A stretch of 64,000 bases of DNA from Kiritimatiellia bacterium (GCA_017481725.1 JAFUOX010000098.1:43168-107167); one strand, 5' to 3'; counted from the first letter of the stretch, positions 1-39,640 are shown. Program-made: numbers and translations. The notes: generated from the letters alone by a model not told the origin.

Positions 1-1845
1 GAATATCAAAGGCCCTATAGTTGGGATAATGAAAAATGTGAAATCCTTTGGGATGACGTTCTCAATTATCATCATGATCAGAATAAAGGAGATAAATATT
101 TCCTTGGAACTATTGTTACATGTAAAGATGATTCAGTTGAAGGAATTAGCGTCATTGATGGTCAACAGAGAATTACTTCTTTCTTTTTACTTCTAAGAGC
201 TTTTTATAAAAAACTTGAAGACATGCTTGTTCAAACCCCAAATGATAAAGAAGTTGAAGGTTTGATGAAACAAATAGCTCCTTGTATATGGGATGTAAAT
301 CCGATGTCTCAAGAGGTTTCTGATAAAACAAAAATTCATATTCAATCTTTAGTTGCCTCAGAGAAAGATAATGAATCTTTTCATAAGATAATGATAACAG
401 GTATTGCTGAAGAAAATGATAAGTCATTATATGCAAAAAATTATTCTTTTTTCTTGAATAAATGTGATAGCTATGCAGCAAGTCAACCACTGGATTGGAA
501 ACAGCTTTGTCTCTGCATCATGAATGAGTGTATTGTTCTACCAATTGAATGTACTGATTTAGACTCTGCTCTTATAATTTTTTCAACATTAAATGATAGA
601 GGAATGCCTCTTTCAGATTCAGATATTTTCAAAGCAGAAATATACAAAACAAAGAAATCAAAAGAAGAAAAAGACACATTCACTCAAAATTGGAAAGAAC
701 TAGGTGAAACTGCTGAAAACGCAAAAATGTCGATAGATGATATTTTTAAGCTTTATACTCATGTTTTAAGAGCAAAAGGAAACTGCTCAGATAGTGAAAT
801 TGGTCTTAGGAAATTTTATTCAGAAAATCAACGTAGTCGGCTTCATGAAAGTAATCTTACTGAGACTTTGCTTGAAGTAGCACATTTCTGGGAAAAACTA
901 ATTAGTTATAATGATGAAATATGTACTGAAAAAACAAAGAAATATATTCATTGTTTAAAAGCATATCCAAATGAATATTGGAAGTATCCAATAACAGTTC
1001 TTTTTGACTATTGTAAAAGGAATAAAAAAGAAATTAAGAATCTATTACCAGAGTATTTAGCAAAACTTATTTCGTATTTGTTTGTTAGATTTATTGAAAA
1101 ACCAAGTGTCAATACAATTAAAAATCCTGTGTATTTATTCTGCATAGATACATATAAAAACGGGTGTCTTGATACAGATGATTTTGTCATTGTTGATGAT
1201 TTTAAGACAAAATTGATTCTTACTGCAGGAAGTTCAAAAATCCAAAAAGCAATGTTGTTGTTAAACTCTTATTTATTTGATAATTCAACACCTCTTTTAC
1301 AAGAAATCATGGAAGTAGAGCATATTTTCCCACAAAAATGGGATGCTACCTATTTTACATGGACTGATGAAGACGCAAAAAAATATATTGATAAAATTGG
1401 TAATAAAATTCCATTTGAAAAGAAACTTAACATAAAAGCAAGTAACGGTTTTTTTAGCAAAAAGAAAGAAGAATATGCAAAGTCTCAAAATAAAGAAGTC
1501 TTAGAACTTACTAAAAATCAAGATTGGACAAAAGAGAATATTGATACTCGTGCTGACGAAATGGCTGATAGACTCGAAGAGTTTTTTGAAGAAAATTTAA
1601 AATCTTCTGTTATTACAAAAAAATTGATTTGCTATACAGGCGGAACAAAAATCGTAACGATTAATTATGTAACATCAAAAACTTATAAAAAATATGTAGT
1701 AATTCAGAATGATAATGGAAAAATAGAACAAAATGAATTTGATGTTTTTGAAAATGCTGTAATTTCAATTGATAAAGGTTTGTTTTTATATGGCCAAGAA
1801 ATTTTTGTAGATGAAGAATGCAAAGACTTTAAGAATTGTTTGTAA
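1..1845 (+). CDS. DUF262/DUF1524 (GmrSD-like type IV restriction-type) protein, 5' end outside window
   Basis: Frame +1 is open from base 1, so the M at 223 in the ORF track is internal. The N-terminal part has the DUF262 hallmark ...ISVIDGQQRITSFFLL.... The C-terminal part has a DUF1524/His-Me-finger-like ...EVEHIFPQKW...GNKIPFEKKLNIKASN. Confidence 0.8.
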   Translation, partial: EYQRPYSWDNEKCEILWDDVLNYHHDQNKGDKYFLGTIVTCKDDSVEGISVIDGQQRITSFFLLLRAFYKKLEDMLVQTPNDKEVEGLMKQIAPCIWDVNPMSQEVSDKTKIHIQSLVASEKDNESFHKIMITGIAEENDKSLYAKNYSFFLNKCDSYAASQPLDWKQLCLCIMNECIVLPIECTDLDSALIIFSTLNDRGMPLSDSDIFKAEIYKTKKSKEEKDTFTQNWKELGETAENAKMSIDDIFKLYTHVLRAKGNCSDSEIGLRKFYSENQRSRLHESNLTETLLEVAHFWEKLISYNDEICTEKTKKYIHCLKAYPNEYWKYPITVLFDYCKRNKKEIKNLLPEYLAKLISYLFVRFIEKPSVNTIKNPVYLFCIDTYKNGCLDTDDFVIVDDFKTKLILTAGSSKIQKAMLLLNSYLFDNSTPLLQEIMEVEHIFPQKWDATYFTWTDEDAKKYIDKIGNKIPFEKKLNIKASNGFFSKKKEEYAKSQNKEVLELTKNQDWTKENIDTRADEMADRLEEFFEENLKSSVITKKLICYTGGTKIVTINYVTSKTYKKYVVIQNDNGKIEQNEFDVFENAVISIDKGLFLYGQEIFVDEECKDFKNCL

Positions 1846-1882
1846 AATTATTGCCCAATTATCTAATCTAAGGTGATTTTTT

Positions 1883-3283
1883 ATGAAAATAGAATGTGAT
1901 GAAAAACAGAATATAGAGTTTAAGGAAAGCTGGCGTGATGAATACCTTAAGTGGATTTGTGGATTTGCAAATGCACAGGGAGGTACTCTGTATATTGGGG
2001 TGAATGACAATGCAGAAGTTGTGGGTATTGAGAACGCAAAAAAGATGCTGGAAGATATTCCAAATAAAGTACGTGACGTCTTGGGTATTATAGTTGATGT
2101 GAATCTTATTCAGGACAATGGTAAAAATTTTCTTCAGATACAAGTTGAGCCTTACAAAAATCCTGTTAGTTACAAAGGTGAATTTCATTATAGAAGTGGC
2201 AGCACCAAGCAAGAACTAAAAGGGAATGCACTTACCAATTTTTTACTAAAAAAAATGGGACTCACTTGGGATGCCATTAGTGAACCTCGTGCAAAAACTA
2301 CAGACCTTGATCATGAAGCCTTTGAATTATTCCGTAAAAAGGCGCGGAAAGCCAAACGCCTAGATGAAGATGACATTAATTTAAGCGACTCAGAACTTCT
2401 TGAAAAACTTCGACTTATAGAAAACGGAGAATTAAAGCGTGGAGCGATTCTTTTGTTTCATAAAGACCCTGAGCGTTATATAACTGGAGCTTATACTAAA
2501 ATTGGATATTTCAATGATGATTCGGATATTTTGTTTCAAGACGAAGTTCATGGAAATCTCTTTGAACAGATTGACAAACTTATGGAACTGATTTTTTTCA
2601 AATATATGAAAGCATTTATTCGCTACGAAGGAATTCAACGCATTGAAGAATACTGCGTTCCAAAAGCGGCTATGCGAGAAGCTCTATTGAATGCAATAAT
2701 ACACAAAAATTATGGTGGCTGTGTTCCGATTCAGATTCGCATTTACAAAGATAAAGTTGTTATCTGGAATGATGCGGTACTTCCAGATGGTTGGACTGTG
2801 GAAAAATTCCTTCAAAACCATAGAAGCCGTCCTTATAATCCAGACATTGCGAATGCTTTTTTTAGGGCAGGAGAGATTGAAAGCTGGGGACGGGGTATTG
2901 AAAAAATATGCAAGGCATTGAGTCAGCAAAATTTAAATCCACCTGAATATACACAATTGGGAGAAGCTGTTTGTACTACATTCCATTTTGTTGAACCAAC
3001 TACAAGTGAATCGGATATTCCTGCCGGAAGTGTGGAACAGAGAGTGAATTCACCAAAAACTGCTCAAGAAATTATAAAACTGCCCAATAACTGCCCAATA
3101 ACTGCCCAAAAAACTATGCTGGCAATTATAGAAAATCCAAGGGCTACAATAGCAGAATTGAGTAAAAGTACAAATCAGTCTGAAAGGACAATAAAGACCC
3201 ATCAAAAGTTGTTGCAAGAGAATAATCTTATTCGACGAACAGGAAGCAAAAAATCAGGGGCATGGGAGATTTTAGTAAAATGA
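1883..3283 (+). CDS. AlbA_2 (Schlafen-like) + HATPase_c_4 + C-terminal winged-HTH protein (often annotated RecG-like ATP-binding regulator)
   Basis: The N-terminus IEFKESWRDEYLKWICGFANAQGGTLYIGVND is typical of AlbA_2. The centre REALLNAIIHKNY...RPYNPDIANAFFRAGEIESWGRGIEKI is typical of HATPase_c_4. The C-terminus MLAIIENPRATIAELSKSTNQSERTIKTH is HTH-like. An RBS-like AAGGTG lies upstream. Confidence 0.75.
   Translation: MKIECDEKQNIEFKESWRDEYLKWICGFANAQGGTLYIGVNDNAEVVGIENAKKMLEDIPNKVRDVLGIIVDVNLIQDNGKNFLQIQVEPYKNPVSYKGEFHYRSGSTKQELKGNALTNFLLKKMGLTWDAISEPRAKTTDLDHEAFELFRKKARKAKRLDEDDINLSDSELLEKLRLIENGELKRGAILLFHKDPERYITGAYTKIGYFNDDSDILFQDEVHGNLFEQIDKLMELIFFKYMKAFIRYEGIQRIEEYCVPKAAMREALLNAIIHKNYGGCVPIQIRIYKDKVVIWNDAVLPDGWTVEKFLQNHRSRPYNPDIANAFFRAGEIESWGRGIEKICKALSQQNLNPPEYTQLGEAVCTTFHFVEPTTSESDIPAGSVEQRVNSPKTAQEIIKLPNNCPITAQKTMLAIIENPRATIAELSKSTNQSERTIKTHQKLLQENNLIRRTGSKKSGAWEILVK
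3078..3110 (+). repeat. 11-bp tandem repeat (aactgcccaat) x3 inside the AlbA_2 gene
   Basis: Read directly: aactgcccaat / aactgcccaat / aactgcccaaa. The unit length is not a multiple of 3. Confidence 0.9.
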
Positions 3284-6200
3284 AACTACGATTCAAGCAT
3301 CAAAAATTCCAAGCAGATGCTGCGAAGGCAGTGGTGGATGTTTTTGCAGGTCAACCTTATTTAACTCCTTCTTATATGATGGATAGAGGAACAGGTATAT
3401 ATCAGCAGACTATTACGGAAGAAGATGACTTTACCGGTTGGTCTAATGCGAAACTTGTTCCGGAGCTGAATGACCGTCTGATTTTAGAACATATCCAGAA
3501 AGTGCAAAGAGCAAACTTGATTGCGCCGTCACCGAAATTGGAAGGTCGTTTTAACCTTACCATTGAAATGGAAACTGGTGTCGGTAAAACATATACATAT
3601 ATCAAAACAATGTATGAGCTGAATAAGCACTATGGTTGGAGCAAATTCATTGTTGTGGTTCCTTCTGTTGCTATCCGTGAAGGCGTTTACAAATCCTTTC
3701 AAATGACGCAGGAACACTTTGCAGAGGAGTACGGTAAAAAGGTTCGCTTCTTTATTTACAACTCTGCTCAACTCACTGAAATTGACCGTTTTGCATCGGA
3801 TAGTTCAATCAATGTAATGATAATCAATTCTCAGGCATTTAATGCCAAAGGCAAGGATGCACGTAGAATAAATATGAAATTGGATGAGTTCCGTTCTCGC
3901 AAACCGATTGATATTATCGCTAAAACAAATCCGATTTTAATTATTGACGAGCCACAGTCTGTTGAAGGAGCTCAGACAAAGGAGCAACTTAAAAAGTTTA
4001 ACCCTTTGATGACTCTCCGTTATTCTGCTACCCATAAGTCTGATAGCATCTATAACATGATTTATCGACTGGACGCTATGGAAGCATACAACAAGCGTTT
4101 AGTGAAGAAGATTGCAGTTAAAGGTATTTCTCAAACAGGTAGTACAGCGACAGAAAGTTATGTGTATTTAGAAAGTATAAATCTTTCTGCAGCAGACCCA
4201 ACTGCTACATTGCAGTTTGATTTTAGAGGGGCTACTGGAATTCGAAAGAAATCTATGAAAGTAGGAATTGGATTCAATCTTTATGATAATTCTGGACAAC
4301 TGGATGAGTATAAGAATGGCTTTGTTGTTAAAAATATTGATGGTAGAGATGATTCTGTTGAGTTTCTAAATGGTATAAAAATTTATGTTGGTGATGTAAT
4401 AGGAGAAGTTAATGAAGAACAATTACGCCGTATTCAAATAAGAGAAACAATTCTGTCTCATATTCAGCGCGAGCGCGAATTGTTTTATAAAGGAATTAAA
4501 GTTTTATCTCTTTTCTTCATTGATGAGGTTGTGAAGTACAAGCAGTACGATAAAGCAGGACAACCTTTTAACGGGGTCTATGCCGATATGTTTGAAGAAG
4601 AGTATGCTGATATTCTTTCTTCAATGCAGTTAGAATTTGGTGATGAAGAATATATAAAGTACCTCGATGTTATTTCTCCATCGTCAACACATGCTGGTTA
4701 TTTTTCCATAGATAAAAAAGGAAAAATGATTGATTCTAATTTAGGTAAAAAAGAAAACTCTTCTGATGATATAGATGCTTATGACTTGATTATGAAAAAC
4801 AAGGAGCTTTTGCTTGAGAGAAATCCAAAGAAATCTCCAGTCCGTTTTATCTTCTCTCATTCGGCTCTCCGTGAAGGTTGGGATAACCCTAATGTTTTTC
4901 AAATTTGTACATTGAAGCATAGTACAGCAGAGGTTCGAAAACGTCAAGAAGTTGGTCGTGGTCTGCGTCTTTGCGTTAATCAAGATGGAGAGCGAATGGA
5001 TGCCAATGTGCTTGGTGCAGAGGTACACAATGTTAATGTTTTAACAGTTATCGCTAGTGAAAGTTATGAAAGCTTTGCAAGAGGATTGCAGACCGAATTG
5101 GCAGATGCTGTTGCAAACCGTCCGAAAACAGTTACACCGGAACTGTTTATGGGCAAGACCATCACAGATGCACAGGGCAACACCGATGTTATCACGGATG
5201 ATGTTGCACGAGAAATATGGTTCGGTATGCGTAATGAGGGCTATATCGATAAGCAAGGGACACTTACCGATAAATACTATGAAGACAAGGCTAACGGTGA
5301 AATCAAACTCACAGATGATGTGGCAGGTTCTACAGAATCCATCCTTAGCATCATTGATACCATCTATGACGGTAAGGCAATGCAGCCTGAAAATGCTCGT
5401 AGCAATAACATTGAACTCAAAGTTGATGATAAGAAATTGGCGATGCCGGAGTTTAAGGCACTTTGGAACCGTATCAATTCTAAGTCTGTCTATGTAGTAG
5501 ATTTTGATACTAATGAACTTGTCAGAAAGTCCATTGCATCATTGAATGCAAAACTCCGTGTTTCCAAAATTTATTTTAAGGTTGATACTGGAACAATAAA
5601 AATTATCGAATCTAAGGAAGAACTTGTTTCTGGTGCATCTTTTGTTAAGGAAGAATCTAACTCTTACGATGTTGGAAATAAAATTGCTGTAAATACAAGT
5701 GTTAAATACGATTTGGTAGGTAAACTTGTAGATGCTACTGGTCTCACAAGAAAGGCAATAATTCAAATTCTAAAGGGTGTTGAGGAATTTGTTTTTGACC
5801 AATTTAAAGATAACCCAGAAGAATTTATCATCAAGGCTGCTTCGCTAATAAATGATGAAAAAGCTACTGCAATCATTGAGCATATTACTTATAATGTGCT
5901 TGATGAAAAATATGATACCGATGTGTTTACAGATCCTACAATTAAAGGTAAATTGGGGGTAAATGCTATTAAGACCAATAAGCATTTGTATGATCATATG
6001 GTGTTTGACTCAACAATCGAGAAAAATTTTGCAGAAGGATTAGATGTTAATAGTGATGTTGCTGTTTATGTAAAATTACCAAAAGGGTTTTATATTTCAA
6101 CTCCATTAGGTAATTATAATCCAGACTGGGCTATTTCTTTTTACGATGGGAAAATTAAACACATTTTCTTTGTTGCAGAAACAAAAGGTTCTATGAATTC

Positions 6201-6333
6201 ATTAGATTTACGTCTAATAGAAAATTCAAAAATTCATTGTGCAAGAGAGCATTTTAGAGCGATAAGTAACGGAAATGTTGTTTATGATGTTGTTGATAGT
6301 TATCAAGCATTGTTAGATAAGGTTATGCGGTAA
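3280..6333 (+). CDS. res: Type III restriction enzyme Res-like subunit (SF2 helicase + C-terminal PD-(D/E)xK nuclease)
   Basis: Motif I is METGVGKTYTYI and motif II is LIIDEPQS. The C-terminal nuclease motif is YNPDWAI...FFVAETKGS. The size of about 1017 aa and the N-terminus MKLRFKHQKFQ fit Res. I prefer the ATG at 3280 over the track start at 3262 because it forms an ATGA overlap with the upstream stop (3281-3283). Confidence 0.8.
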   Translation: MKLRFKHQKFQADAAKAVVDVFAGQPYLTPSYMMDRGTGIYQQTITEEDDFTGWSNAKLVPELNDRLILEHIQKVQRANLIAPSPKLEGRFNLTIEMETGVGKTYTYIKTMYELNKHYGWSKFIVVVPSVAIREGVYKSFQMTQEHFAEEYGKKVRFFIYNSAQLTEIDRFASDSSINVMIINSQAFNAKGKDARRINMKLDEFRSRKPIDIIAKTNPILIIDEPQSVEGAQTKEQLKKFNPLMTLRYSATHKSDSIYNMIYRLDAMEAYNKRLVKKIAVKGISQTGSTATESYVYLESINLSAADPTATLQFDFRGATGIRKKSMKVGIGFNLYDNSGQLDEYKNGFVVKNIDGRDDSVEFLNGIKIYVGDVIGEVNEEQLRRIQIRETILSHIQRERELFYKGIKVLSLFFIDEVVKYKQYDKAGQPFNGVYADMFEEEYADILSSMQLEFGDEEYIKYLDVISPSSTHAGYFSIDKKGKMIDSNLGKKENSSDDIDAYDLIMKNKELLLERNPKKSPVRFIFSHSALREGWDNPNVFQICTLKHSTAEVRKRQEVGRGLRLCVNQDGERMDANVLGAEVHNVNVLTVIASESYESFARGLQTELADAVANRPKTVTPELFMGKTITDAQGNTDVITDDVAREIWFGMRNEGYIDKQGTLTDKYYEDKANGEIKLTDDVAGSTESILSIIDTIYDGKAMQPENARSNNIELKVDDKKLAMPEFKALWNRINSKSVYVVDFDTNELVRKSIASLNAKLRVSKIYFKVDTGTIKIIESKEELVSGASFVKEESNSYDVGNKIAVNTSVKYDLVGKLVDATGLTRKAIIQILKGVEEFVFDQFKDNPEEFIIKAASLINDEKATAIIEHITYNVLDEKYDTDVFTDPTIKGKLGVNAIKTNKHLYDHMVFDSTIEKNFAEGLDVNSDVAVYVKLPKGFYISTPLGNYNPDWAISFYDGKIKHIFFVAETKGSMNSLDLRLIENSKIHCAREHFRAISNGNVVYDVVDSYQALLDKVMR

Positions 6334-6358
6334 AATCAAAGATATATTGAGGTCTAGT

Positions 6359-7504
6359 GTGAGTTTATCAGAAAATAAAATAATTCAAGATTTGAGTTTG
6401 TCAAAAGAAGAAATAATTCAGGTTGTGAATTTTTTTGATAAAAATATCAATTTGACTGTTCTATTTGTTGAGCTTTTTGAGTTACAAGTATCGCTATGCC
6501 CAGATGAAATTATTTTCGATAATAGAGAAACAATTATAGGGTTTGGGTGTAATAACGAACATTTACGAGTTTATTTTAGAAAAGAAAGAAAATCGTTCTT
6601 TGTAAAATTTAAGGCATTAGATAAAACTCTACCATTTGAAGAAGATAAATCAGACGTCTATAAAGGACTTCTTGAAGAAAATGATGAGGAGTTTGAGGAA
6701 AATATAAATGAATTTTTATTGAAGGGTACATCACGAAAGCCAAAAACTCAAAAAACTAAAAAAGCTAAGCTTAAAACCATCGAAGAGAATGATAAGGTTT
6801 TAAGTAAGTTAAGCAATAGAAGTAATGCTCGTAAATTTACATTGCATGATTTTAATGATATAGCTGATTGGTCGTATTGTCATTCTTTTACGGATAATAA
6901 TAAAATAGTACGATTGCCGAATGGCAATGTAATAGAATGTGATTCAAAAAGTGAGAAAGAGCTTTTAAAATATTTAATTTCAAAAAATCTTACAAAAGGT
7001 ATTGGTGCACAAAATCTTACGATTTTTTATGACACAGCATTTCGGTCTTGTGCTGAATATCATCCTGATCTTGTTATACTCACAAAAGATAATCATATAG
7101 CGATAATAGAAGTTAAATCTGTTAGTTCTATGAGCCACCATATCAATATTGAAAAATATGAAGGGTTAAAAAAATATTGTGAAGCCCATGGATATGAATA
7201 TATGATGGTAGATCCAGATAATAACTATATGACATTTGAAGATATGAAAAGTATGAGCATTCCTAAAGATATTACAAGTCGAGTTATGGAATATCTTGAG
7301 AATTTATTGGAAGAAAAATATTCCAATCCTTGTCTTTTAGAAAAAGATGACATAGATGTTTTATATCCAAAGTTTATACATAAATATAAAAAAGAAGAGT
7401 TTTTATTATATCTAAGGGCGTTAGTAATTCAAAAGGGATGGTATAATAAAAGTAAGCACAATTTTGATGTATATAAAAAACCTAAAAAATCAACTAATAT
7501 CTAG
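6359..7504 (+). CDS. Hypothetical protein with TnsA-N/Vsr-like PD-(D/E)xK nuclease core
   Basis: The core is ...CDSKSEKELLKYL...IFYDTAFRSCAEYHPDLVILTKDNHIAIIEVKSVSS... (S-x-x-E ... PD ... E-V-K pattern). The GTG at 6359 is preceded by GAGG (6349-6352). The track start TTG at 6347 is an alternative. Confidence 0.55.
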   Translation: MSLSENKIIQDLSLSKEEIIQVVNFFDKNINLTVLFVELFELQVSLCPDEIIFDNRETIIGFGCNNEHLRVYFRKERKSFFVKFKALDKTLPFEEDKSDVYKGLLEENDEEFEENINEFLLKGTSRKPKTQKTKKAKLKTIEENDKVLSKLSNRSNARKFTLHDFNDIADWSYCHSFTDNNKIVRLPNGNVIECDSKSEKELLKYLISKNLTKGIGAQNLTIFYDTAFRSCAEYHPDLVILTKDNHIAIIEVKSVSSMSHHINIEKYEGLKKYCEAHGYEYMMVDPDNNYMTFEDMKSMSIPKDITSRVMEYLENLLEEKYSNPCLLEKDDIDVLYPKFIHKYKKEEFLLYLRALVIQKGWYNKSKHNFDVYKKPKKSTNI

Positions 7505-7770
7505 TTGTTTAAAGTTAATTTATCTGTGTGCAGAATGCGAGAGCTTCGCGTAGTTATGTGTGTGTTATTCGTGCTTCGTATATAAGTACATATTTTGCTT
7601 TTAAAGAGGGCAATTCACTTGTTCGTGCTAATGCACGCAAAGCGACAGGATGTCGCTTCTCCATACTTCTAGCATCCCCTCCGTATCTCCGTTCTCTTTT
7701 TCCTCCGTGTTTTGCCGAAGGCAGGAGCGTCAGCGACAAATCACTCATCCGTATTGTTGGATTTTATTTC

Positions 7771-8035
7771 CCGCAGAGACGCAGAGGATTGTGGGCGGCT
7801 AGATGCGAGGTTGGACGTGAGACCCACAGACAATTAGACGCGAGAATGGAGGGAAAACCACTCAACTCTACCTGAATTCTTCATTCATCATTCTTCATTC
7901 TTCATTTATTATAATGCGTTGCCTCCGCGTCTCTGCGTCCCTTTGGCGTCACGTGCATAGCAGTGCACGGATGAGTGGTAGCTACGCAATATGAAGCTAT
8001 GCTTTGCTTCATGCACATAAGAATATCCCGGATAT
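7771..8035. repeat. Mosaic intergenic repeat, copy R1 (partly inverted relative to copy R3)
   Basis: 7831-7945 is the reverse complement of R3 segments 39320-39352 plus 39483-39580, about 90 percent identical by eye. 7966-8030 matches 18667-18730 in direct orientation. It contains tgaagaa-type 7-bp runs and the gacgcagag motif. Confidence 0.8.
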
Positions 8036-8109
8036 TCCACTTAAAAAAGCATATTAACCACAAAATTGTTGATTTATGTGGGCGAAAAATAGTAAAATCA
8101 AAGCCGATT

Positions 8110-8880
8110 ATGAAAGCGATTGTTGTTAATGGTTTAAATAAGAAATTTGGCTCAAAGGAAGCTCTAAAAAATGTGTCCTTTTCTGTAGAGCAGGGGGAGC
8201 GTGTTGCTATTGTCGGACAAAATGGTGCCGGCAAGACAACTCTTTTGCGTATTCTCTCTACATATTTACCTGCAAATTCAGGTACTATTGAGGTGCTCGG
8301 CTTTGATGCTATGAAGGATGCCCTTGAATTGCGAAGCAATATTGGGTATCTGCCTGAAGCGGTTCCTTTATATGAGGAAATGCGTGTGTTTGAATACCTT
8401 AAGTTTAAGTGCAAGCTAAGACACATGCCTACTCAAACACGCAGGCGCAGGCTCCATGACGTAATTTCTTATTGTGATTTGGCTGCTCATTCTAATACAA
8501 CGATAGCATCTCTTTCGCAAGGGGTTAAGCAGCGCGTTGGTATAGCTGATGCGATAGTTCATGAACCACATCTCTTGATGATTGATTCTCTTTTTTCAAA
8601 TTGTGATCCTTATCAGGTAGAATCATTTACAAAACTTTTACTTAAAGACGAAGTGCTTGGTAGTTCTACACTTTTGTTTTCATCTCATAATCGTGAGATT
8701 ATTTCATCTATTGCCACTCGTGTAATATTTCTCAATCATGGAGAGATAGCTGCAGATACAACAGACATGCAGCTATTTAAGCAATATACACTTTCTGAGT
8801 TGTTTACCAACTGGATTAGACAAAAAGAAGCTAAATCAGAGGAAGAACAGCAACAGAATAACGAAAGTTTAGGTAAATAA
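8110..8880 (+). CDS. ABC transporter ATP-binding protein (ABC-2 type) with atypical Walker B region
   Basis: Walker A is GQNGAGKTT, the signature is LSQGVKQRV, and the H-loop is FSSHN. Walker B reads LLMIDSLFSNCD. I prefer the ATG at 8110 (MKAIVVNGLNKKFG). The track start at 7975 runs through the intergenic repeat. Confidence 0.85.
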   Translation: MKAIVVNGLNKKFGSKEALKNVSFSVEQGERVAIVGQNGAGKTTLLRILSTYLPANSGTIEVLGFDAMKDALELRSNIGYLPEAVPLYEEMRVFEYLKFKCKLRHMPTQTRRRRLHDVISYCDLAAHSNTTIASLSQGVKQRVGIADAIVHEPHLLMIDSLFSNCDPYQVESFTKLLLKDEVLGSSTLLFSSHNREIISSIATRVIFLNHGEIAADTTDMQLFKQYTLSELFTNWIRQKEAKSEEEQQQNNESLGK

Positions 8881-8882
8881 TT

Positions 8883-9614
8883 ATGAGCTGTGCGAGAATT
8901 ATTTGGAAAAGAGAATGCAAAGCAGCACTCCGGTCTCCTGTGGCATGGTGTGTGTTTGCTGGATTTACAGCACTAGTAAGCTTGCTATTTACTGCGGCAC
9001 TTAGGGCTGGAGATGGCTCTTTTGAGCATCTGCCAGCAATGTTTTGTGTTCAGATTTATCTTTGCTTGTGTATTCCAATCTCTTTGTTTACAATGCGTTT
9101 GTTTGCAGAAGAAAAGACAAATGGTACAATTGAAATGCTTATGACTGCACCAGTGCGTGATGTAGATGTGGTAATGGGTAAGTTTTTTGCTGCGTATACA
9201 CTTGTTGTGCTTTCAATAGGTGCTTGCTTTATTGCTTTCCCTTGTTATACGCACATTGCAAATCCACCTCCAGCTTATAGCCAAAATTCCTTGTATGGCG
9301 GAATAATCGCTGTTTTAATTGTTGCCGCAATGTGGTGTGCTATTGGAACTTTTATTTCTATTTTGAGTCGGCACCAATCTGTTTCAGCTGCAGCAACATT
9401 GGTAATAGTATTATCAACAGCTGCGGCATTTACTGGGAATGTGCCAGGCTTTGACCCTTCAGGAATTTGTGATGCAATTGATTTTGCCGATGTTGCACGT
9501 GGGACCTTGGACTCTCGGATGATTTGTGGTGTGGTGTCTTTATTGATTTTCTTTTTGTTTTGCTCTGTGCGTTTACTTGAGTCAAGGCGATGGTGTAATG
9601 CATTACACAATTAA
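8883..9614 (+). CDS. ABC-2 family transporter permease
   Basis: It is a multi-pass hydrophobic protein lying 2 bp after the ATPase gene. The motif EEKTNGTIEMLMTAP is typical of ABC-2/GldF-like permeases. Confidence 0.65.
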   Translation: MSCARIIWKRECKAALRSPVAWCVFAGFTALVSLLFTAALRAGDGSFEHLPAMFCVQIYLCLCIPISLFTMRLFAEEKTNGTIEMLMTAPVRDVDVVMGKFFAAYTLVVLSIGACFIAFPCYTHIANPPPAYSQNSLYGGIIAVLIVAAMWCAIGTFISILSRHQSVSAAATLVIVLSTAAAFTGNVPGFDPSGICDAIDFADVARGTLDSRMICGVVSLLIFFLFCSVRLLESRRWCNALHN

Positions 9615-9692
9615 ATTTTGATGTTTCGATGCGGCTTGGGTCTTAAATTATGATTCAAGTCGTAAAAATTTATAAATATAAAGTAATTGGAT

Positions 9693-10643
9693 ATGGATAA
9701 GAAAAAACTATTTATAGCAACAGCTATTGCTGTGGTATTGGTTGTTTTAATTGGGGCTATTATTGTGGGTGTGGCATGTAGTGACACTGCAGAGCCGATG
9801 GCTAAAAAATTAACACTTGAGGATATAGACCGAATTCCTCGTCGCCCTTCTGTGCTTTGTCTTTCTCCTAGCTTTGTTGAGATAATGTATCGAATTAATC
9901 GAGAAGATCATATCATTGCAGTTACAGAGGGCTGTGATTTTCCATCTGATGCAAAGACATTGCCAAATTTGGGTTCTTCTATAGATTTAGATTGGGAACT
10001 TGTAGAACAGCTTCCAATAGATGTGGTTATGCTTACGCCTTCACATAAGATTGAGCATGCACGATTTGCCAAACTTGGTAAAAAAGTAATAGTTGGAGAT
10101 GTTGTTTCTCTTGATTCTGTTATTAATACAATTTGGACTATTGGGTTGTTGTTTAATGAAGAGGATTTTGTTGAACAATGGATGATGGAGTTAGATTTGG
10201 CTCTAACAGTTTTAAAGAAGAAATCAGTTGCGCGAGATGCTCGTGGGGAAGAAGCCCCAAAGGTTCTTTTTGTATTAGGGCATGAGGAAGACTTTTCAGG
10301 CAAGATTATTGTGGCTGGAGCAAGGTTGTTTTATGGAGATGTAATTGTTAAGGCTGGTGGTGTAAATGCTTTTCAAGGGGCTGTTGAAACAGCTGCTATA
10401 ACTTTTGAAGAATTAGTGGCACTTAAGCCAGATATTGTAATAGATGTTGTGCCTCCAGTTGATTTGTTTCAGCGTTTGGAGTATGAATCAAAAATTAAGT
10501 CCTCGTGGGAAGAGAGATTAAGTAAGGATGAAAAGAATCAGCAACCTATCAAGGTTGAAGTGTTTTCAGAGTCATGGGCACGCCGCCCAGGTCCTCGTGT
10601 AATAGAGCTTATAAATAATGTTGGAAAGATTGTTTTTCAATGA
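9693..10643 (+). CDS. Periplasmic binding protein (BtuF/FecB-like, Peripla_BP_2 type)
   Basis: It has an N-terminal TM/signal anchor. The pattern VLCLSPSFVEIMYRI...IIAVTEGCDFP...LPNLGS...DLDWELVEQLPIDVVML is typical of the family. Confidence 0.65.
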   Translation: MDKKKLFIATAIAVVLVVLIGAIIVGVACSDTAEPMAKKLTLEDIDRIPRRPSVLCLSPSFVEIMYRINREDHIIAVTEGCDFPSDAKTLPNLGSSIDLDWELVEQLPIDVVMLTPSHKIEHARFAKLGKKVIVGDVVSLDSVINTIWTIGLLFNEEDFVEQWMMELDLALTVLKKKSVARDARGEEAPKVLFVLGHEEDFSGKIIVAGARLFYGDVIVKAGGVNAFQGAVETAAITFEELVALKPDIVIDVVPPVDLFQRLEYESKIKSSWEERLSKDEKNQQPIKVEVFSESWARRPGPRVIELINNVGKIVFQ

Positions 10644-11428
10644 TAATTGATTTTCATACACATTGTTTTCCCGATGCAATTGCGGAGAGAGCACTTCCAA
10701 TTATTGCTGAAAAGGGTGGTGTGGTGCCAGCTTCTAATGGTAAAATTAGTGGCTTGTTAGATTCTATGAAGCAAAATGGGGTGGATTACTCTGTAATTTT
10801 GCAAATAGCCACAAAACCAACTCAAAATCACACAGTGAATTCTTGGGCAATCGCTCGTAATGAGCCTGAAATAATTGCTTTTGGCAGTGTGCATCCAAGA
10901 AGTGAGGATTGGGAGCCTGAGCTGGAGCGTCTAGCAGAAGCAGGAATAAAGGGAATAAAGCTTCATCCAGAATATCAGTCGTTTTATGTGGATGACCCAA
11001 TGATGCTGCCGATTTATAGGAAAATATCAGAGCTTGGGTTAATTGTTGTATTTCACGCGGGAGAGGACCCAGGTTATCCTCCTCCAGTACATTTAACACC
11101 AGAGCGCATTATGCGAGTGGCTGATATTCTTCCACAGAGCCGTACAGTGCTTGCGCACATGGGTTCGCGTGGCTATCTTGATGATGTTGCACGTCTAATG
11201 AAGGATACGGAATTTTATTACGATACCGCCTTTTGTTATGATGATCATGATCCTGCACAAATGGTAGATATTATTCTTGAGCATGGGTATGAGAAGATAC
11301 TTATGGCGAGCGATTCTCCGTGGGAATCACAGGCCGATGGTATATCTACTGTTAACAGGCTTGCATTAACAGATGAACAAAAGAAAGCCATTCTTGGGGA
11401 CAATGCACAGCGTTTATTAGGGCTATAG
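10640..11428 (+). CDS. Amidohydrolase-family (TIM-barrel metal-dependent hydrolase) protein
   Basis: The N-terminus is MIIDFHTHCFPD and there is an internal GIKLHPEYQ...FHAGE. The start forms an ATGA overlap with the upstream stop. Confidence 0.7.
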   Translation: MIIDFHTHCFPDAIAERALPIIAEKGGVVPASNGKISGLLDSMKQNGVDYSVILQIATKPTQNHTVNSWAIARNEPEIIAFGSVHPRSEDWEPELERLAEAGIKGIKLHPEYQSFYVDDPMMLPIYRKISELGLIVVFHAGEDPGYPPPVHLTPERIMRVADILPQSRTVLAHMGSRGYLDDVARLMKDTEFYYDTAFCYDDHDPAQMVDIILEHGYEKILMASDSPWESQADGISTVNRLALTDEQKKAILGDNAQRLLGL

Positions 11429-11629
11429 ATGTGATAGAGATTTAATCCTAATTTGGGATTGATGCCTTATTTCACACGTTTATGGTTAAACGGCTAAATT
11501 TTGAAAAATTTGGTTGTATTTGAATGATGCTAATTTTTTTGAATTTGCTTGACTTTGACATCATAAAATGGCAAAGTTATCCACCTTGCTGACCAAAAGC
11601 CAAATATAAACACTTAAGGATAAATCATT

Positions 11630-12559
11630 ATGGCCAGAATAGTTACTGTTAATGCACCAGGTAAAATCAATTTAACATTAGAAATCTTGTCTAAACGTCA
11701 GGATGGATACCATGATTTACGCAGTGTTTTATTGCCTATATCATTATATGAAACAGTAACAGTAGAAGAGCGCGATGATGGGAAAATCACCTTAGAAACT
11801 GTTGGTGAAGGGGTTGATATTTCAGTGTTGGGGGATTGTCCACCGGAAAAGAATTTAGCAGTAAAAGCAGCATGGTTAATGAAAGATATAAGCGGCACTG
11901 GTAAAGGGTGTCATATTCATATAACAAAGCGCGTGCCAATTGGTGCAGGAATGGCTGGAGGCAGTGCAGATGCGGCTGGAACAATGGAGGCACTTCGTGC
12001 ATTGTGGCTTCCAAATATTGATAGGAAAGAGCTTGTTGAGCCATCAGCAATGCTAGGTTCAGATATACCTGGTTTATTGTATGGAGGGGCAATCCTTATG
12101 GAAGGTCGTGGTGAGATAGTTACTCCGATATTTAAGGATGGGGAAAAGGCAGAGAATTGCTTTTGGCTTGTAGTTGCTTTTCCTGGCGTAGCGATTTCTA
12201 CAAAAAAAGTTTACGAAAATTGCATTCCGTGCTTGACTGACAGGTCTAAAATATGCGATAATGCTATCAATTCCGTACGCAAAGGTGATGTACGGGCGGC
12301 ATGTCGATATATTTTCAACGGTTTACAAGATACCGTGTTCAACCAATATCCAGAAACGAAGTGCTTTTACACGGCGCTTGGCAATGGTGGTGCTTTATCT
12401 CAGATGCTCTCGGGCAGTGGGTCAGCAGTTTTTGGTTTAGCAGAAAGTAGGGAGCATGCGCTCGAGATACAGAGCCAGCTTCCGGAAGGGACTTGGAGCA
12501 AAGTCGTTCAGACATTGCCCGATAGTGTAATGGCAGCACATGGGCCTTTGACGCCCTGA
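11630..12559 (+). CDS. ispE: 4-diphosphocytidyl-2-C-methyl-D-erythritol kinase
   Basis: The N-terminus APGKINLTLEI and the GHMP kinase motif PIGAGMAGGSADAAG are present. The last 44 nt of the ORF overlap the tRNA-Gln gene. Confidence 0.85.
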   Translation: MARIVTVNAPGKINLTLEILSKRQDGYHDLRSVLLPISLYETVTVEERDDGKITLETVGEGVDISVLGDCPPEKNLAVKAAWLMKDISGTGKGCHIHITKRVPIGAGMAGGSADAAGTMEALRALWLPNIDRKELVEPSAMLGSDIPGLLYGGAILMEGRGEIVTPIFKDGEKAENCFWLVVAFPGVAISTKKVYENCIPCLTDRSKICDNAINSVRKGDVRAACRYIFNGLQDTVFNQYPETKCFYTALGNGGALSQMLSGSGSAVFGLAESREHALEIQSQLPEGTWSKVVQTLPDSVMAAHGPLTP

Positions 12560-12589
12560 GTTATGGTTCGAATCCATATCGGGCAACCA
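12516..12589 (+). tRNA. tRNA-Gln (anticodon UUG), CCA encoded
   Basis: A hand-folded cloverleaf fits. Acceptor is TGCCCGA/TCGGGCA (U1-A72), D-stem GTGT/GCAC, anticodon stem TGGGC/GCCCT with loop CTTTGAC. T-arm is TATGG-TTCGAAT-CCATA, discriminator A, then CCA. Confidence 0.9.
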
Positions 12590-12684
12590 TTTTTCCTCTA
12601 ACTGAGGATTTGGTTGCAAAACAAGTCTCACATTAAAACTTTTGTTACTTACAACCAAAAATATTTAAAAAGTGAGAGCTGACC

Positions 12685-13611
12685 GTGAAAATCTTTTCCG
12701 GAAATTCAAATAGAAAGCTAGCAGGTAGCATTGCATCATATCTAGGCGTAGAGCTTGGAGCTGCAGATGTTATTTCCTTCCCAGATGGTGAATCATTTGT
12801 TAAAATTAATGAGTGTGTTCGTGGTGAAGATTGCTATGCTGTTCAATCAGTTTGTGGTAGACCAAATGAAATGCTAATGGAGCTATTGATTATGATTGAT
12901 GCTCTAAGGCGTGCTTCTGCAGCAAGAATTACTGCGGTTCTACCTATATATGGCTATGCACGCCAAGATCGTAAGGATCAACCACGTGTGCCAATAACAG
13001 CAAAGTTAGTAGCTAATCTACTAACAGCTGCAGGTGCAGATCGTGTGCTAACTATGGATCTTCATGCAGCTCAAATTGTAGGATATTTTGATATACCAGT
13101 TGATCACCTACATGCATCTCCTGTTATTGTAAAATATCTTAAGGATAAGAATTTGGAAAAACCAGTAATTGTTGCACCAGATACTGGTAGTGTTAAGAAT
13201 GCGTATGCATACTCAAGAATGTTTGGCTGCGGTTTAGCAATTGTTGCTAAGCAGCGTAAGGGCGCAGATGAGGTTGAGGCTTTCTCACTAGTTGGTGATG
13301 TCGATGGTTGTGATGTAATAATGATTGACGATTTGACCAGCACCTGTGGCACTCTTTGTGCTGCTGCAAACCTTGTAAAGAAGCATGGTGCTAAAAATGT
13401 TTATGCTGCTGTAACTCATGGCCTACTAAATGCTCAAGGCCGCGAGCGTTTAAGCAATTCATCAATTTCAGAGTTAATCGTAACTGATACAGTCCCTCAG
13501 GATCATCCTCCAGAGCTACCAATCACAGTGCTTTCAGTAGCAGATTTGTTTGGTGAGGCTATTAGACGTATCAATGAGGATAGCTCAATTAGCACCTTGT
13601 TTTCAATGTAA
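12685..13611 (+). CDS. prs: Ribose-phosphate pyrophosphokinase
   Basis: Motifs YGYARQDRK, MDLHAAQIVGYFDIPVD and IMIDDLTSTCGT are present. The start codon is GTG. Confidence 0.95.
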   Translation: MKIFSGNSNRKLAGSIASYLGVELGAADVISFPDGESFVKINECVRGEDCYAVQSVCGRPNEMLMELLIMIDALRRASAARITAVLPIYGYARQDRKDQPRVPITAKLVANLLTAAGADRVLTMDLHAAQIVGYFDIPVDHLHASPVIVKYLKDKNLEKPVIVAPDTGSVKNAYAYSRMFGCGLAIVAKQRKGADEVEAFSLVGDVDGCDVIMIDDLTSTCGTLCAAANLVKKHGAKNVYAAVTHGLLNAQGRERLSNSSISELIVTDTVPQDHPPELPITVLSVADLFGEAIRRINEDSSISTLFSM

Positions 13612-39283: not shown

Positions 39284-39640
39284 AGATGCACGTGATGCAC
39301 GTGATGCGGAGCGTGATGCACGTGATGCCAAAGGGACGCAGAGACGCGGAGGCCGCAGAGGTCGCAGAGCCGTGACGCCGAAAAATACACTAGCGGAATG
39401 AGGTTTGCCTTGACTATTGCTATTCTTTTGAAGCAATTGGGCAAACCTCATCCACTAGTGTGCTCGCTCAAAAGCTTACTAAGACGCGGAGGCGATGCAT
39501 TATAATAAATGAAGAATGAAGAATAAGAATGAAGAATTCAGGTAGAGTTGAGTGGTTTTTTCTACATTCTCGCGTCTAATCTCGTCTGCTGCGTCCTCTG
39601 CGTCGCAGCGTCCCTTCTTGCACTTTTAGCTGCGTCCCAC
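39284..39640. repeat. Mosaic intergenic repeat, copy R3
   Basis: It contains gatgcacgt 9-mers at 39285-39329 and a gacgcagag run. A 130-bp hairpin module (39353-39482) is bounded by gacgcggagg at 39343-39352 and 39483-39492. ataataaatgaagaatgaag runs follow, then inverted gacgcag motifs. Confidence 0.85.

What the first reader, a model, noticed from the sequence alone, without database searches (positions are those of the whole stretch)
1..7504. Four-gene defence operon built around a Type III Res-like helicase-nuclease with no methyltransferase in view
Four same-strand, tightly packed genes are present:
- a GmrSD-like DUF262/DUF1524 protein
- an AlbA_2 (Schlafen-type) + HATPase_c_4 + wHTH protein
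- a roughly 1017-aa Type III Res-like SF2 helicase with a C-terminal PD-(D/E)xK motif
- a TnsA-N-like PD-(D/E)xK protein

Canonical Type III systems are mod-res pairs in which Res depends on Mod. Here the gene translationally coupled to res (ATGA overlap at 3280-3283) is the AlbA_2/HATPase sensor-like protein, not a Mod. The block looks more AT-rich than the flanking housekeeping genes, although this was judged by eye and not computed. It ends exactly at a mosaic repeat region.

It may be a composite island of independent modules. Alternatively, it may be a modification-independent system in which an AlbA_2 protein partners a Res-type motor nuclease.
Basis: partly seen in the sequence, partly recalled or inferred. 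Interest (0 to 1): 0.7.

Follow-up and report, generated by a model that had tools for sequence, protein, structure and literature searches.

The report
Type III restriction operon with embedded defence genes
The four genes are the tail of an eight-gene restriction-modification operon whose methyltransferase lies just beyond the window edge, with unrelated defence genes nested between its two core genes, a known kind of arrangement rather than a new methylation-independent system.

Summary
Four intact, same-strand, tightly packed genes lie at 1-7504: a GmrSD-like gene cut by the window edge, a Schlafen/AlbA_2-GHKL-HTH gene, an EcoP15I-like Type III Res and a TnsA-like nuclease. GC is 0.33 against 0.40 elsewhere.

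The "no methyltransferase" reading comes from where the window starts. Two metagenome contigs 100% identical to window 1-13283 continue upstream with SNF2 helicase, DUF4391, a full-length Type III Mod and DUF8370/8371. Mod ends 1.57 kb before window base 1.

In 68 other species with a related Res and an upstream Mod:
- 42 have no ORF between mod and res.
- 26 carry 1-3 varied genes there (YhcG, RhuM, Abi, Fic, HNH, AlbA_2 and others).
- Several of these also overlap res by ATGA.

The closest AlbA_2 relative outside its 90% cluster with an informative contig (76% identity) sits inside a Type I R-M operon. Relatives at 51-54% stand alone.

So this is a Type III R-M operon with embedded defence cargo, as described for Type I, BREX, DISARM and Hma systems. 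An AlbA_2-Res partnership is not supported.

The least understood part is the rare TnsA-like nuclease. It recurs directly downstream of helicase-type restriction subunits, and its N-terminal domain is fused to UvrD helicases elsewhere.

The parts
1..1845 (+). 3' 1845 bases of a GmrSD-like (DUF262 + DUF1524, HEC-06-like) Type IV restriction endonuclease gene. It is embedded cargo. The true start lies 117-150 bases before window base 1 (L002 8002 or 7969).
   Evidence: Pfam GmrSD_N and GmrSD_C. PADLOC HEC-06 scores 179 bits for the full-length protein. The frame is open from base 1. DGQQR and EHIFP motifs are present. GC is 0.288.
1883..3283 (+). Prokaryotic Schlafen protein of 466 aa: SLFN/AlbA_2 nuclease domain, GHKL-type ATPase (HATPase_c_4) and C-terminal winged HTH (the 'Schlatpase-HTH' or pSlfn-HisKinase-HTH architecture). 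It is embedded cargo and its stop overlaps the res start.
   Evidence: Pfam hits. E7-x4-E12-x-K14 and CGFAN (Schlafen box) are present. More than 8000 homologues exist. Its contexts are a Type I R-M operon or stand-alone.
3280..6333 (+). Type III restriction subunit Res, 1017 aa, EcoP15I-like: SF2 helicase motor plus C-terminal PD-(D/E)xK nuclease. It is a core gene of the host system.
   Evidence: PADLOC REase_III 954 bits. NCBIfam PRK15483 aligns over its full length at 344 bits. PDB 4ZCF_C at E 5e-61. Catalytic motifs are present. Relatives at 81-89% identity occur in many phyla and are named type III R-M endonuclease.
6347..7504 (+). TnsA-like PD-(D/E)xK nuclease, 385 aa (381 aa from the start at 6359). 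It has an N-terminal alpha/beta domain of unknown fold (residues ~15-125) followed by a TnsA-like catalytic domain and a C-terminal winged-helix-like domain. It is the last gene of the operon, belongs to a rare family and is not part of a transposon.
   Evidence: Pfam 27.1 bits. No PADLOC hit. Only 35 word-sharing homologues. The profile search finds 945 representatives among 1.84 billion. Fold match to TnsA. Invariant residues E197, D199, D241 and E255; K257 in at least 90% of sequences.
7505..7975 (.). Intergenic boundary of the AT-rich block. It carries a dispersed repeat also found at window 39316-39580 on the opposite strand. The ABC-transporter operon follows.
   Evidence: blastn at 93-97% identity. 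No Rfam family matched. Pfam ABC_tran on the next gene.

Best explanation
The window catches the last four genes of one eight-gene, AT-rich, horizontally acquired operon in a Kiritimatiellia bacterium. The order is SNF2 helicase, DUF4391, Type III Mod, [DUF8370/8371, GmrSD-like, Schlafen-GHKL-HTH], Type III Res, TnsA-like nuclease.

The core is a canonical EcoP15I-type Type III restriction-modification system. Mod methylates host sites and supplies DNA recognition. Res, an SF2 ATPase with a PD-(D/E)xK nuclease, acts only in complex with Mod and cuts unmodified invading DNA.

In about 70% of informative relatives this Type III family travels with an SNF2 helicase and a DUF4391 protein of unknown role.

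The three bracketed genes are autonomous defence cargo that has landed in the variable slot between mod and res. They are probably co-transcribed with it.
- The GmrSD/HEC-06-like enzyme would cut hypermodified phage DNA that escapes R-M.
- The Schlafen protein would act as an ATP-switched RNase (abortive-infection type).
- The DUF8370/8371 protein resembles an untested PADLOC candidate.

The result is layered immunity under one promoter.

What is shown: gene content, order, intact motifs, homology, and turnover of the cargo across species. What is inferred: co-transcription, each biochemical activity, and the independence of the cargo in vivo.
For: Upstream context.
- Contigs L001 and L002 come from two different samples. 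They are 100% identical to window 1-13283 and identical to each other upstream.
- They carry SNF2, DUF4391 (Pfam 172 bits), Mod (PADLOC MTase_III 686 bits full length; 4ZCF_A at E 3e-57; DPPY) and DUF8370/71 (PDC-M36A 72 bits).
- All eight genes are on one strand, with gaps from -26 to +38 bp.

Comparative genomics over 80 species-level genomes.
- 68 comparator loci have Mod upstream of Res.
- In 42 of them no ORF lies between mod and res.
- 26 carry 1-3 ORFs in the slot. These include YhcG/DUF1016 (8 loci), RhuM (4), AlbA_2-HATPase_c_4 (2, plus this one), Abi_2, Abi_C, Fic+Bro-N, HNH, DUF2971, CpXC, a MotA/OmpA-like pair and 23S_rRNA_IVP.
- Cargo ORFs of YhcG, RhuM, Fic and AlbA_2 type run 4 bases past the res start. 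The sequences checked show the ATGA start.
- The closest species-level relative (L007, Res 89% identical) has a different 195-aa gene in the slot. Its Mod is only 58% identical and its SNF2 64%.

AlbA_2 relatives in other places.
- The 76%-identical relative lies between hsdR and hsdS of a Type I system and also overlaps hsdS by 4 bp.
- Relatives at 51-54% identity stand alone among housekeeping genes.

GC content is mosaic: Mod 0.39, Res 0.36 and AlbA_2 0.37, against GmrSD 0.29, DUF8370 0.29 and TnsA-like 0.28.

Literature.
- Nesting of defence genes inside Hma, BREX, DISARM and Type I R-M operons is described, and HEC-06 is experimentally protective (10.1101/2024.01.29.577857).
- SLFN-GHKL 'Schlatpase' and pSlfn-HisKinase-HTH are common prokaryotic Schlafen architectures, with tRNA-cleaving effectors.
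Against: - The upstream genes are read from identical metagenome contigs, not from the window's own record.
- No transcription or activity data exist. The promoter and terminator scans were no better than shuffled sequence.
- AlbA_2-type proteins recur in this Type III family: 3 of 69 loci in the mod|res slot, and one AlbA_2-only protein in the DUF4391|mod slot of L015. Some functional affinity between Schlafen proteins and R-M operons cannot be excluded.
- Protection by the HisKinase-HTH class of pSlfn was not established in what I read.
- The roles of SNF2 and DUF4391 are unknown.
Confidence: 0.85

Rival explanations
1. The AlbA_2/HATPase protein replaces Mod as the partner and sensor of the Res motor nuclease, giving a modification-independent restriction system.
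For: The 4-bp ATGA overlap between the AlbA_2 stop and the res start. No methyltransferase inside the window. AlbA_2-type genes lie between mod and res in two other species, L079 and L086.
Against: - A full-length, motif-intact Type III Mod lies in the same operon.
- 42 of 68 related loci have no ORF between mod and res.
- The same 4-bp overlap occurs with cargo ORFs of YhcG, RhuM and Fic type.
- In L086 an Abi_2 gene separates AlbA_2 from res.
- The nearest AlbA_2 relatives are in a Type I operon or stand alone, without any Res.
- From established knowledge of EcoP15I (PDB 4ZCF): Res has no DNA-recognition function without Mod.
Confidence: 0.03
2. All eight genes form one obligate multi-component machine, DISARM- or BREX-like, in which the SNF2 helicase, DUF4391, Mod, GmrSD, Schlafen, Res and TnsA-like proteins need one another.
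For: All genes are on the same strand with gaps of at most 38 bp. SNF2 and DUF4391 are linked to this Res family in 38 of 53 informative loci. SNF2 shows weak similarity to DrmD, DpdE and BrxH.
Against: - The three middle genes and the TnsA-like gene are absent from nearly all relatives and are replaced by unrelated genes.
- 15 of 53 informative loci lack SNF2 and DUF4391.
- SNF2 scores 145 bits against a cut-off of 610 for DrmD.
- No PADLOC or NCBIfam hit for any operon protein reached the DISARM DrmA/DrmD or BREX cut-offs, and no DrmB, DrmC or PglZ match was listed.
- GC content is mosaic across the operon.
Confidence: 0.05
3. The TnsA-like nuclease is not independent cargo. It is an accessory that docks on the helicase-type restriction subunit encoded just upstream (here Res) and adds or modifies DNA cleavage.
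For: - Homologues lie directly after a restriction or helicase gene in most informative contexts.
- These are Type III Res (window; L091/L092; L093), a ResIII-TnsA_N fusion (L087), a ResIII+Eco57I enzyme (L088-L090), UvrD (L097), and one gene after HsdR (L112).
- L091 repeats the arrangement SNF2, DUF4391, Mod, x, Res, TnsA-like in another organism.
- The protein's N-terminal domain occurs fused to the C-terminus of UvrD-like helicases (P0408, P0411). Its nuclease domain occurs fused to RuvB-like ATPases.
Against: - None of the 80 genome loci with a related Res has it, so Res does not need it.
- The upstream partners belong to different helicase families.
- The sample is small (about nine informative contexts) and all lie in defence-rich regions, where adjacency is expected by chance.
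- There are no interaction data.
Confidence: 0.25
4. The Type III system is a degenerate or phase-variable 'phasevarion', with Mod acting as an epigenetic regulator and Res inactive. The block would then no longer be a restriction system.
For: Type III mod genes in host-adapted bacteria are often phase-variable (PMC1976455, listed).
Against: There is no simple-sequence repeat tract in mod or res. All helicase and nuclease motifs of Res, and DPPY of Mod, are intact. The apparent split res in L003 is a scaffolding artefact with a run of N.
Confidence: 0.04

Closest known systems
EcoP15I / StyLTI-type Type III restriction-modification systems (mod-res)
   Same: Res and Mod are homologous to EcoP15I Res and Mod (4ZCF_C at E 5e-61; 4ZCF_A at E 3e-57). 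Res aligns over its full length to NCBIfam PRK15483. Helicase, nuclease and DPPY motifs are intact. Mod is upstream of res on the same strand.
   Different: Mod and res are separated by 4.85 kb holding three unrelated genes. An SNF2 helicase and a DUF4391 gene precede mod, and a TnsA-like nuclease follows res. The Res score (344 bits) is below the equivalog cut-off of 564, so this is a distinct subfamily.
'Embedded' defence genes in Hma, BREX, DISARM and Type I R-M operons (Payne et al. 2024, bioRxiv 10.1101/2024.01.29.577857), including HEC-06 and BrxU GmrSD-like enzymes
   Same: Cargo is in the same orientation and nested between genes of a multi-gene system. GmrSD-like proteins are typical cargo. 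The window's GmrSD hits HEC-06 best, and the DUF8370/71 protein hits candidate PDC-M36A. The cargo families also occur outside the host system.
   Different: In the text I read, that study did not treat Type III R-M as a host system. Here there are two slots, DUF4391|mod and mod|res. Three cargo genes are stacked in one slot.
Prokaryotic Schlafen proteins: 'Schlatpase' SLFN-GHKL supradomain (bioRxiv 10.64898/2026.05.29.728809) and pSlfn-HisKinase-HTH (Nat Microbiol 2026, PMC13056530)
   Same: The domain order is the same: SLFN/AlbA_2, PF13749 GHKL ATPase, C-terminal HTH. The E-x4-(D/E)-x-K motif and Schlafen box are present. The PADLOC hit covers the SLFN-GHKL part of a pAgo model.
   Different: There is no Argonaute, NACHT or Ig-like sensor. 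The sensor and trigger of the HTH class are not known, and its defence activity was not shown in the passages read.
Tn7 TnsA endonuclease
   Same: The fold of roughly the C-terminal 235 residues matches TnsA (catalytic PD-(D/E)xK domain plus C-terminal domain; 1t0f/1f1z, E 2e-4). Catalytic-type residues are conserved.
   Different: No gene annotated as TnsB, TnsC, TnsD or any transposase appears in the Pfam-annotated contexts. There is an extra N-terminal domain with no PDB fold match. The genomic company is restriction and helicase genes.

Membership tests
Type III restriction-modification system | Res subunit with SF2 helicase motifs and a C-terminal PD-(D/E)xK nuclease | tested here: met
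   GVGKT, DEPQ, QEVGR and PD(948)...ETK(969) are present. Pfam ResIII and RE_endonuc. PADLOC REase_III 954 bits. 4ZCF_C at E 5e-61.
Type III restriction-modification system | Cognate Mod methyltransferase (N6_N4_Mtase with DPPY) in the same operon, upstream of res | tested here: met
   L001 and L002, identical to the window over 13.3 kb, carry a 615-aa Mod. PADLOC MTase_III 686 bits over full length; 4ZCF_A at E 3e-57; DPPY at residue 121. It lies three genes upstream of res. Caveat: this is read from identical contigs, not from the window itself.
Type III restriction-modification system | Res activity depends on Mod; ATP-dependent cleavage needs inversely oriented unmethylated sites | not testable with these tools
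   This needs biochemistry or genetics.
GmrSD / HEC-06-like Type IV restriction endonuclease | N-terminal DUF262 with a DGQQR NTPase motif, plus C-terminal DUF1524 with a His-Me (D/E)HxxP nuclease motif | tested here: met
   DGQQR at residue 92 and EHIFP at 479 of the full-length protein. Pfam GmrSD_N 126 bits and GmrSD_C 70 bits. HEC-06 179 bits.
GmrSD / HEC-06-like Type IV restriction endonuclease | Cleavage of modified (for example glucosyl-hmC) DNA, or phage protection | not testable with these tools
   Experimental.
Prokaryotic Schlafen (pSlfn-HisKinase-HTH / Schlatpase) | SLFN/AlbA_2 domain with the E-x4-(D/E)-x-K motif and Schlafen box, followed by a PF13749 GHKL ATPase and an HTH | tested here: met
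   E7-x4-E12-x-K14 and CGFAN at residue 26. Pfam SLFN_AlbA_2 68.8 bits, HATPase_c_4 67.6 bits, HTH_24 25.9 bits.
Prokaryotic Schlafen (pSlfn-HisKinase-HTH / Schlatpase) | tRNA/RNA cleavage and ATP-driven oligomerisation | not testable with these tools
   Experimental.
Tn7-like transposon (TnsA as the transposase subunit) | TnsA-like PD-(D/E)xK catalytic fold | tested here: met
   Foldseek 1t0f/1f1z at E 2e-4, probability 1.0. Pfam 27.1 bits against a cut-off of 26.5. D241 and E255 are invariant; K257 is in at least 90% of sequences.
Tn7-like transposon (TnsA as the transposase subunit) | Adjacent tnsB/tnsC (and a target selector) and transposon ends | tested here: not met
   No TnsB, TnsC or transposase families appear in the Pfam-annotated contexts (L001/L002 and L087-L092). 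The neighbours checked in L096, L097 and L112 are restriction, helicase and other unrelated genes. No flanking inverted or direct repeats were found.
Embedded defence cargo (guilt-by-embedding sense) | Genes nested between the genes of a multi-gene defence system, in the same orientation, variable between relatives, and also found outside that system | tested here: met
   Searches show slot variability: 42 loci with no ORF in the slot against 26 occupied. Searches show the cargo families elsewhere.
DISARM | DrmA, DrmB (DUF1998) and DrmC together with a DrmD-type SNF2 helicase and a methylase | tested here: not met
   SNF2 scores 145 bits against a cut-off of 610 for DrmD. No DUF1998 or PLD protein is in the operon.

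The most novel reading that the evidence does not exclude
Two linked things are not excluded.

(a) The rare TnsA-like protein family may be a new accessory or stand-alone defence nuclease that works with translocating helicase-type restriction subunits.
- The family gives 945 profile hits among 1.84 billion representatives and is absent from PADLOC.
- It repeatedly sits directly downstream of Type III Res, ResIII-Eco57I, UvrD and HsdR-class genes.
- Its N-terminal domain is fused to UvrD helicases in other proteins.

(b) This widespread Type III family, usually accompanied by an SNF2 helicase and the wholly uncharacterised DUF4391, may be a four-gene variant of Type III R-M. It has two insertion slots that could be mined for new defence genes, as was done for Hma, BREX and Type I.
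Probability: 0.3. Interest if true: 0.55.

Novelty: new member of a known kind. Interest (0 to 1): 0.3.

Why it matters
The result removes an apparent anomaly. The 'Res without Mod' is an ordinary Type III enzyme whose partner gene lies 1.6 kb outside the window.

It also gives a clear example that Type III R-M operons accept nested defence cargo, as Type I, BREX, DISARM and Hma operons do. In 26 of 68 related loci the mod|res junction is occupied by varied, mostly defence-type genes, and the cargo often overlaps res. The 'guilt-by-embedding' search could therefore be extended to Type III systems.

Three poorly known components deserve experiments:
- DUF4391, with its SNF2 partner.
- The DUF8370/8371 protein (PADLOC candidate PDC-M36A-like).
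- The TnsA-like nuclease that trails helicase-type restriction genes.

Tried and rejected
- Island boundaries. No direct or inverted repeats flank the operon. The 761 bases upstream of SNF2 do not match the window. No integrase is in view, and the only tRNA (Gln, 12516-12589) is 5 kb downstream.
- Promoter and terminator scans of the operon gave counts equal to shuffled sequence and were uninformative.
- Rfam scan of the intergenic region 7300-8300 found nothing.
- The 'split res' in contig L003 looked like a frameshift variant. It is a scaffold join with a run of N and unrelated sequence, so it was rejected as biology.
- Phase variation. There are no repeat tracts in mod or res. An 11-nt x 2.9 perfect repeat lies in the AlbA_2 gene (window 3078-3109), but the peptide it encodes is unchanged in all 10 cluster members where that stretch was found.
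- N-terminal domain of the TnsA-like protein. It was modelled separately (pLDDT 87) but has no significant PDB fold match; the best is E 0.14, frataxin-like.
- PDB sequence searches for DUF4391 and DUF8370/71 found nothing meaningful.
- Literature searches for DUF4391, PF14335 and DUF8370/8371 found no functional description.
- I looked for a DUF8370-GmrSD two-gene module. The one viral-contig relative of DUF8370/71 sits next to an integrase without GmrSD, so the pairing is not established.
- Metagenome and viral scans for the TnsA-like family returned only 9 and 1 loci, so the context statistics are thin.


Full report
**1. What is in the window**

Four + strand ORFs fill positions 1-7504.

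The first ORF is open from base 1, reading EYQRPYSWDN...IDGQQRITS. It is therefore a gene cut by the window edge, not a 540-aa protein starting at 223. Pfam gives GmrSD_N and GmrSD_C, and the best PADLOC hit is HEC-06.

The second ORF (1883-3283) has SLFN_AlbA_2, HATPase_c_4 and a winged HTH.

The third ORF is Res.
- It starts at the ATG at 3280, which overlaps the preceding TGA.
- It scores 954 bits over the full length of the PADLOC Type III REase model.
- It aligns end to end with NCBIfam PRK15483.
- It matches EcoP15I Res (4ZCF_C, E 5e-61), with GVGKT, DEPQ, QEVGR and PD...ETK in place.

The fourth ORF (6347-7504) barely passes Pfam Tn7_TnsA-like_N (27.1 bits against a cut-off of 26.5). 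Two further results support the assignment.
- A confident AlphaFold2 model (pLDDT 87.8) has TnsA as its best PDB match.
- E197, D199, D241 and E255 are invariant among 30 homologues, and K257 is in at least 90% of them.

GC is 0.332 in the block against 0.399 in the rest of the window. No other 7.5-kb stretch falls below 0.359.

**2. The missing methyltransferase**

An exact-sequence look-up of the AlbA_2 protein returned contigs from independent metagenome samples. Two of them, L001 and L002, are 100% identical to window 1-13283. Window base 1 corresponds to L002 position 8119. The two contigs are also identical to each other over the 8.1 kb upstream.

Upstream, on the same strand and with gaps from -26 to +38 bp, they carry four more genes:
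- an SNF2 helicase of 1078 aa;
- a DUF4391 protein (Pfam 172 bits);
- a 615-aa methyltransferase;
- a DUF8370/8371 protein that hits the untested PADLOC candidate PDC-M36A.

The methyltransferase covers the whole PADLOC Type III MTase model (686 bits) and matches EcoP15I Mod (4ZCF_A, E 3e-57). It carries DPPY.

Mod ends 1573 bases before window base 1. The block is therefore the 3' half of an eight-gene operon: SNF2, DUF4391, Mod, DUF8370/71, GmrSD, Schlafen, Res, TnsA-like.

Housekeeping proteins of the window cluster at 90% identity or more with proteins named 'Kiritimatiellae bacterium'.

**3. Is the AlbA_2-Res pairing conserved?**

Res has relatives at 81-89% identity in very different bacteria (Akkermansia, Ruminococcus, Saccharofermentanales), named type III R-M endonuclease.

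I fetched 80 species-level genome loci with a Res relative at 47-89% identity. I then labelled their ORFs with the eight operon proteins.
- 68 comparator loci have Mod upstream of Res.
- In 42 of them no ORF lies between mod and res; the gap is mostly under 25 bp.
- 26 hold one to three ORFs in between.

Pfam on the occupants of the slot shows a typical defence-island mix:
- YhcG/DUF1016 PD-(D/E)xK nucleases (8 loci) and RhuM (4 loci);
- Abi_2, Abi_C, Fic+Bro-N, HNH, DUF2971 and CpXC;
- a MotA/OmpA-like pair and a 23S-rRNA-IVP protein;
- distant AlbA_2-HATPase_c_4 proteins in two loci, L079 and L086.

In L086 an Abi_2 gene separates the AlbA_2 gene from res. Cargo ORFs of YhcG, RhuM, Fic and AlbA_2 type all run 4 bases past the res start. 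Res begins ATG-A(AA) in nearly every locus checked, so the ATGA coupling belongs to the slot and not to AlbA_2.

The closest species-level relative, L007, has Res at 89% identity. It has a different 195-aa gene in the slot, and its Mod (58%) and SNF2 (64%) are far more diverged. Together with the uneven GC across the operon, this points to mosaic assembly.

**4. Where the cargo families live otherwise**

The AlbA_2 protein belongs to a very large family, with more than 8000 hits at about 50% identity or above. Sources name them ATP-binding, RNA-binding or 'RecG' proteins.

The closest relative outside its own 90% cluster with an informative contig (P0123, 76% identity) lies between an EcoEI-type hsdR and hsdS. 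It overlaps hsdS by 4 bp. Relatives at 51-54% identity are single genes among housekeeping genes.

The architecture is the 'Schlatpase-HTH' or pSlfn-HisKinase-HTH class of prokaryotic Schlafens. The window protein keeps the E-x4-E-x-K motif and the Schlafen box.

The GmrSD protein keeps DGQQR and EHIFP. These are the motifs whose mutation abolishes defence by HEC-06.

A DUF8370/71 relative sits next to an integrase, without GmrSD, on a viral contig.

These results fit autonomous modules nested in a host operon. That arrangement is the one described as 'embedding' for Hma, BREX, DISARM and Type I R-M. Type III systems were not treated in the text of that study that I read.

**5. The conserved frame**

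SNF2 and/or DUF4391 are linked to this Res family in 38 of 53 informative loci. In 35 they lie upstream of mod and in 3 downstream of res.

A second variable slot lies between DUF4391 and mod. In L015 it holds an AlbA_2-only protein.

DUF4391 has no PDB relative and no functional literature. SNF2 falls far below the DISARM DrmD cut-off, so this is not DISARM.

**6. The TnsA-like gene**

This is the least ordinary part. It has no PADLOC match.

The family is small:
- 35 homologues in the word-indexed search of 5.8 billion proteins;
- 945 profile hits, 52 of them below 1e-30, among 1.84 billion representatives.

None of the 80 Res loci has it. Where relatives have context, however, they sit with helicase-type restriction genes:
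- directly after Type III Res in another SNF2, DUF4391, Mod, x, Res operon (L091/L092) and in L093;
- after a ResIII-TnsA_N fusion (L087);
- after a ResIII+Eco57I enzyme (L088-L090);
- after UvrD and before an SNF2 helicase and an Eco57I-type methylase (L097);
- one gene after HsdR (L112).

No transposition genes were seen in the annotated contexts, so it is not a Tn7 component.

Its nuclease domain also occurs fused to RuvB-like ATPases. Its N-terminal domain, whose fold has no PDB match, occurs at the C-terminus of UvrD-like helicases. This suggests that it works with a helicase. The sample is small and the inference is weak.

**7. Mechanism**

The most likely mechanism (confidence 0.85) has the following parts.
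- Mod2-Res-type Type III restriction of unmethylated DNA is the host system. Knowledge of EcoP15I indicates that Res depends on Mod.
- Three defence genes share its transcript: a Type IV-like GmrSD against hypermodified DNA, an ATP-switched Schlafen RNase, and an unknown DUF8370/71 protein.
- A trailing TnsA-like nuclease is either further cargo or a helicase accessory.

Shown: gene order, homology, motifs and cargo turnover. Inferred: co-transcription, activities and independence.

**8. Verdict**

The 'modification-independent AlbA_2-Res system' is not supported, and the 'composite of independent modules' is supported in the refined form of embedding inside a Type III operon.

The novelty is modest. 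This is a new member of known kinds, with Type III as a further host for embedded cargo. The TnsA-like family and SNF2-DUF4391 are the leads worth following.

Noticed in passing
window 7505-7975 and 39316-39580: A dispersed intergenic repeat. Window 7833-7932 and 7921-7958 match 39482-39580 and 39316-39353 on the opposite strand at 93-97% identity. It has a (TTCATTC)-like run and GC-rich 'CCTCCGCGTCTCTGCGTCCC' segments. Both copies are intergenic and neither has an Rfam match.
   Followed up: partly
L002 762-4660 (upstream of the window) and loci L007-L086: An SNF2 helicase and a DUF4391 protein accompany this Type III R-M family in 38 of 53 informative loci: 35 upstream of mod and 3 downstream of res. 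DUF4391 has no PDB relative and no functional literature.
   Followed up: partly
L072 6816-9972: Between mod and res of a Marinoscillum Type III operon lie a MotA_ExbB-like protein (534 aa), an OmpA-like protein (243 aa) and a 269-aa unknown. This may be a Zorya-like ZorAB-type module embedded in the slot.
   Followed up: no
L015 6099-7169: An AlbA_2-only Schlafen protein of 356 aa occupies the other variable slot, between DUF4391 and mod, in a Bifidobacteriaceae genome.
   Followed up: no
L003 3285-3424: The apparent split of res into two ORFs in this contig is a scaffolding artefact: about 130 unrelated bases followed by a run of N.
   Followed up: yes
window 3078-3109: A perfect 11-nt x 2.9 tandem repeat (AACTGCCCAAT) lies inside the Schlafen gene, in the linker before the HTH. 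The peptide it encodes is unchanged in all 10 cluster members (90% identity or more) where that stretch was found, so there is no sign of phase variation.
   Followed up: yes
L088 5761-8086; proteins P0400-P0415, P0408, P0411, P0380: Two TnsA-like paralogues, a short wHTH form and a long form, occur in tandem after a ResIII+Eco57I enzyme. The same nuclease domain is fused to RuvB-like AAA+ ATPases (730-980 aa) and to an ADP-ribosylglycohydrolase. The N-terminal domain of the long form is fused to UvrD-like helicases.
   Followed up: partly
L088-L092, two genes downstream of the TnsA-like gene: A Macro-domain protein (343-361 aa) recurs two genes after the TnsA-like gene in two otherwise different contexts. 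It is absent from the window.
   Followed up: no
window 12516-12589: tRNA-Gln (anticodon TTG) overlaps the end of the ORF called at 11630-12559 (IspE-like). It is the only tRNA in the window.
   Followed up: no
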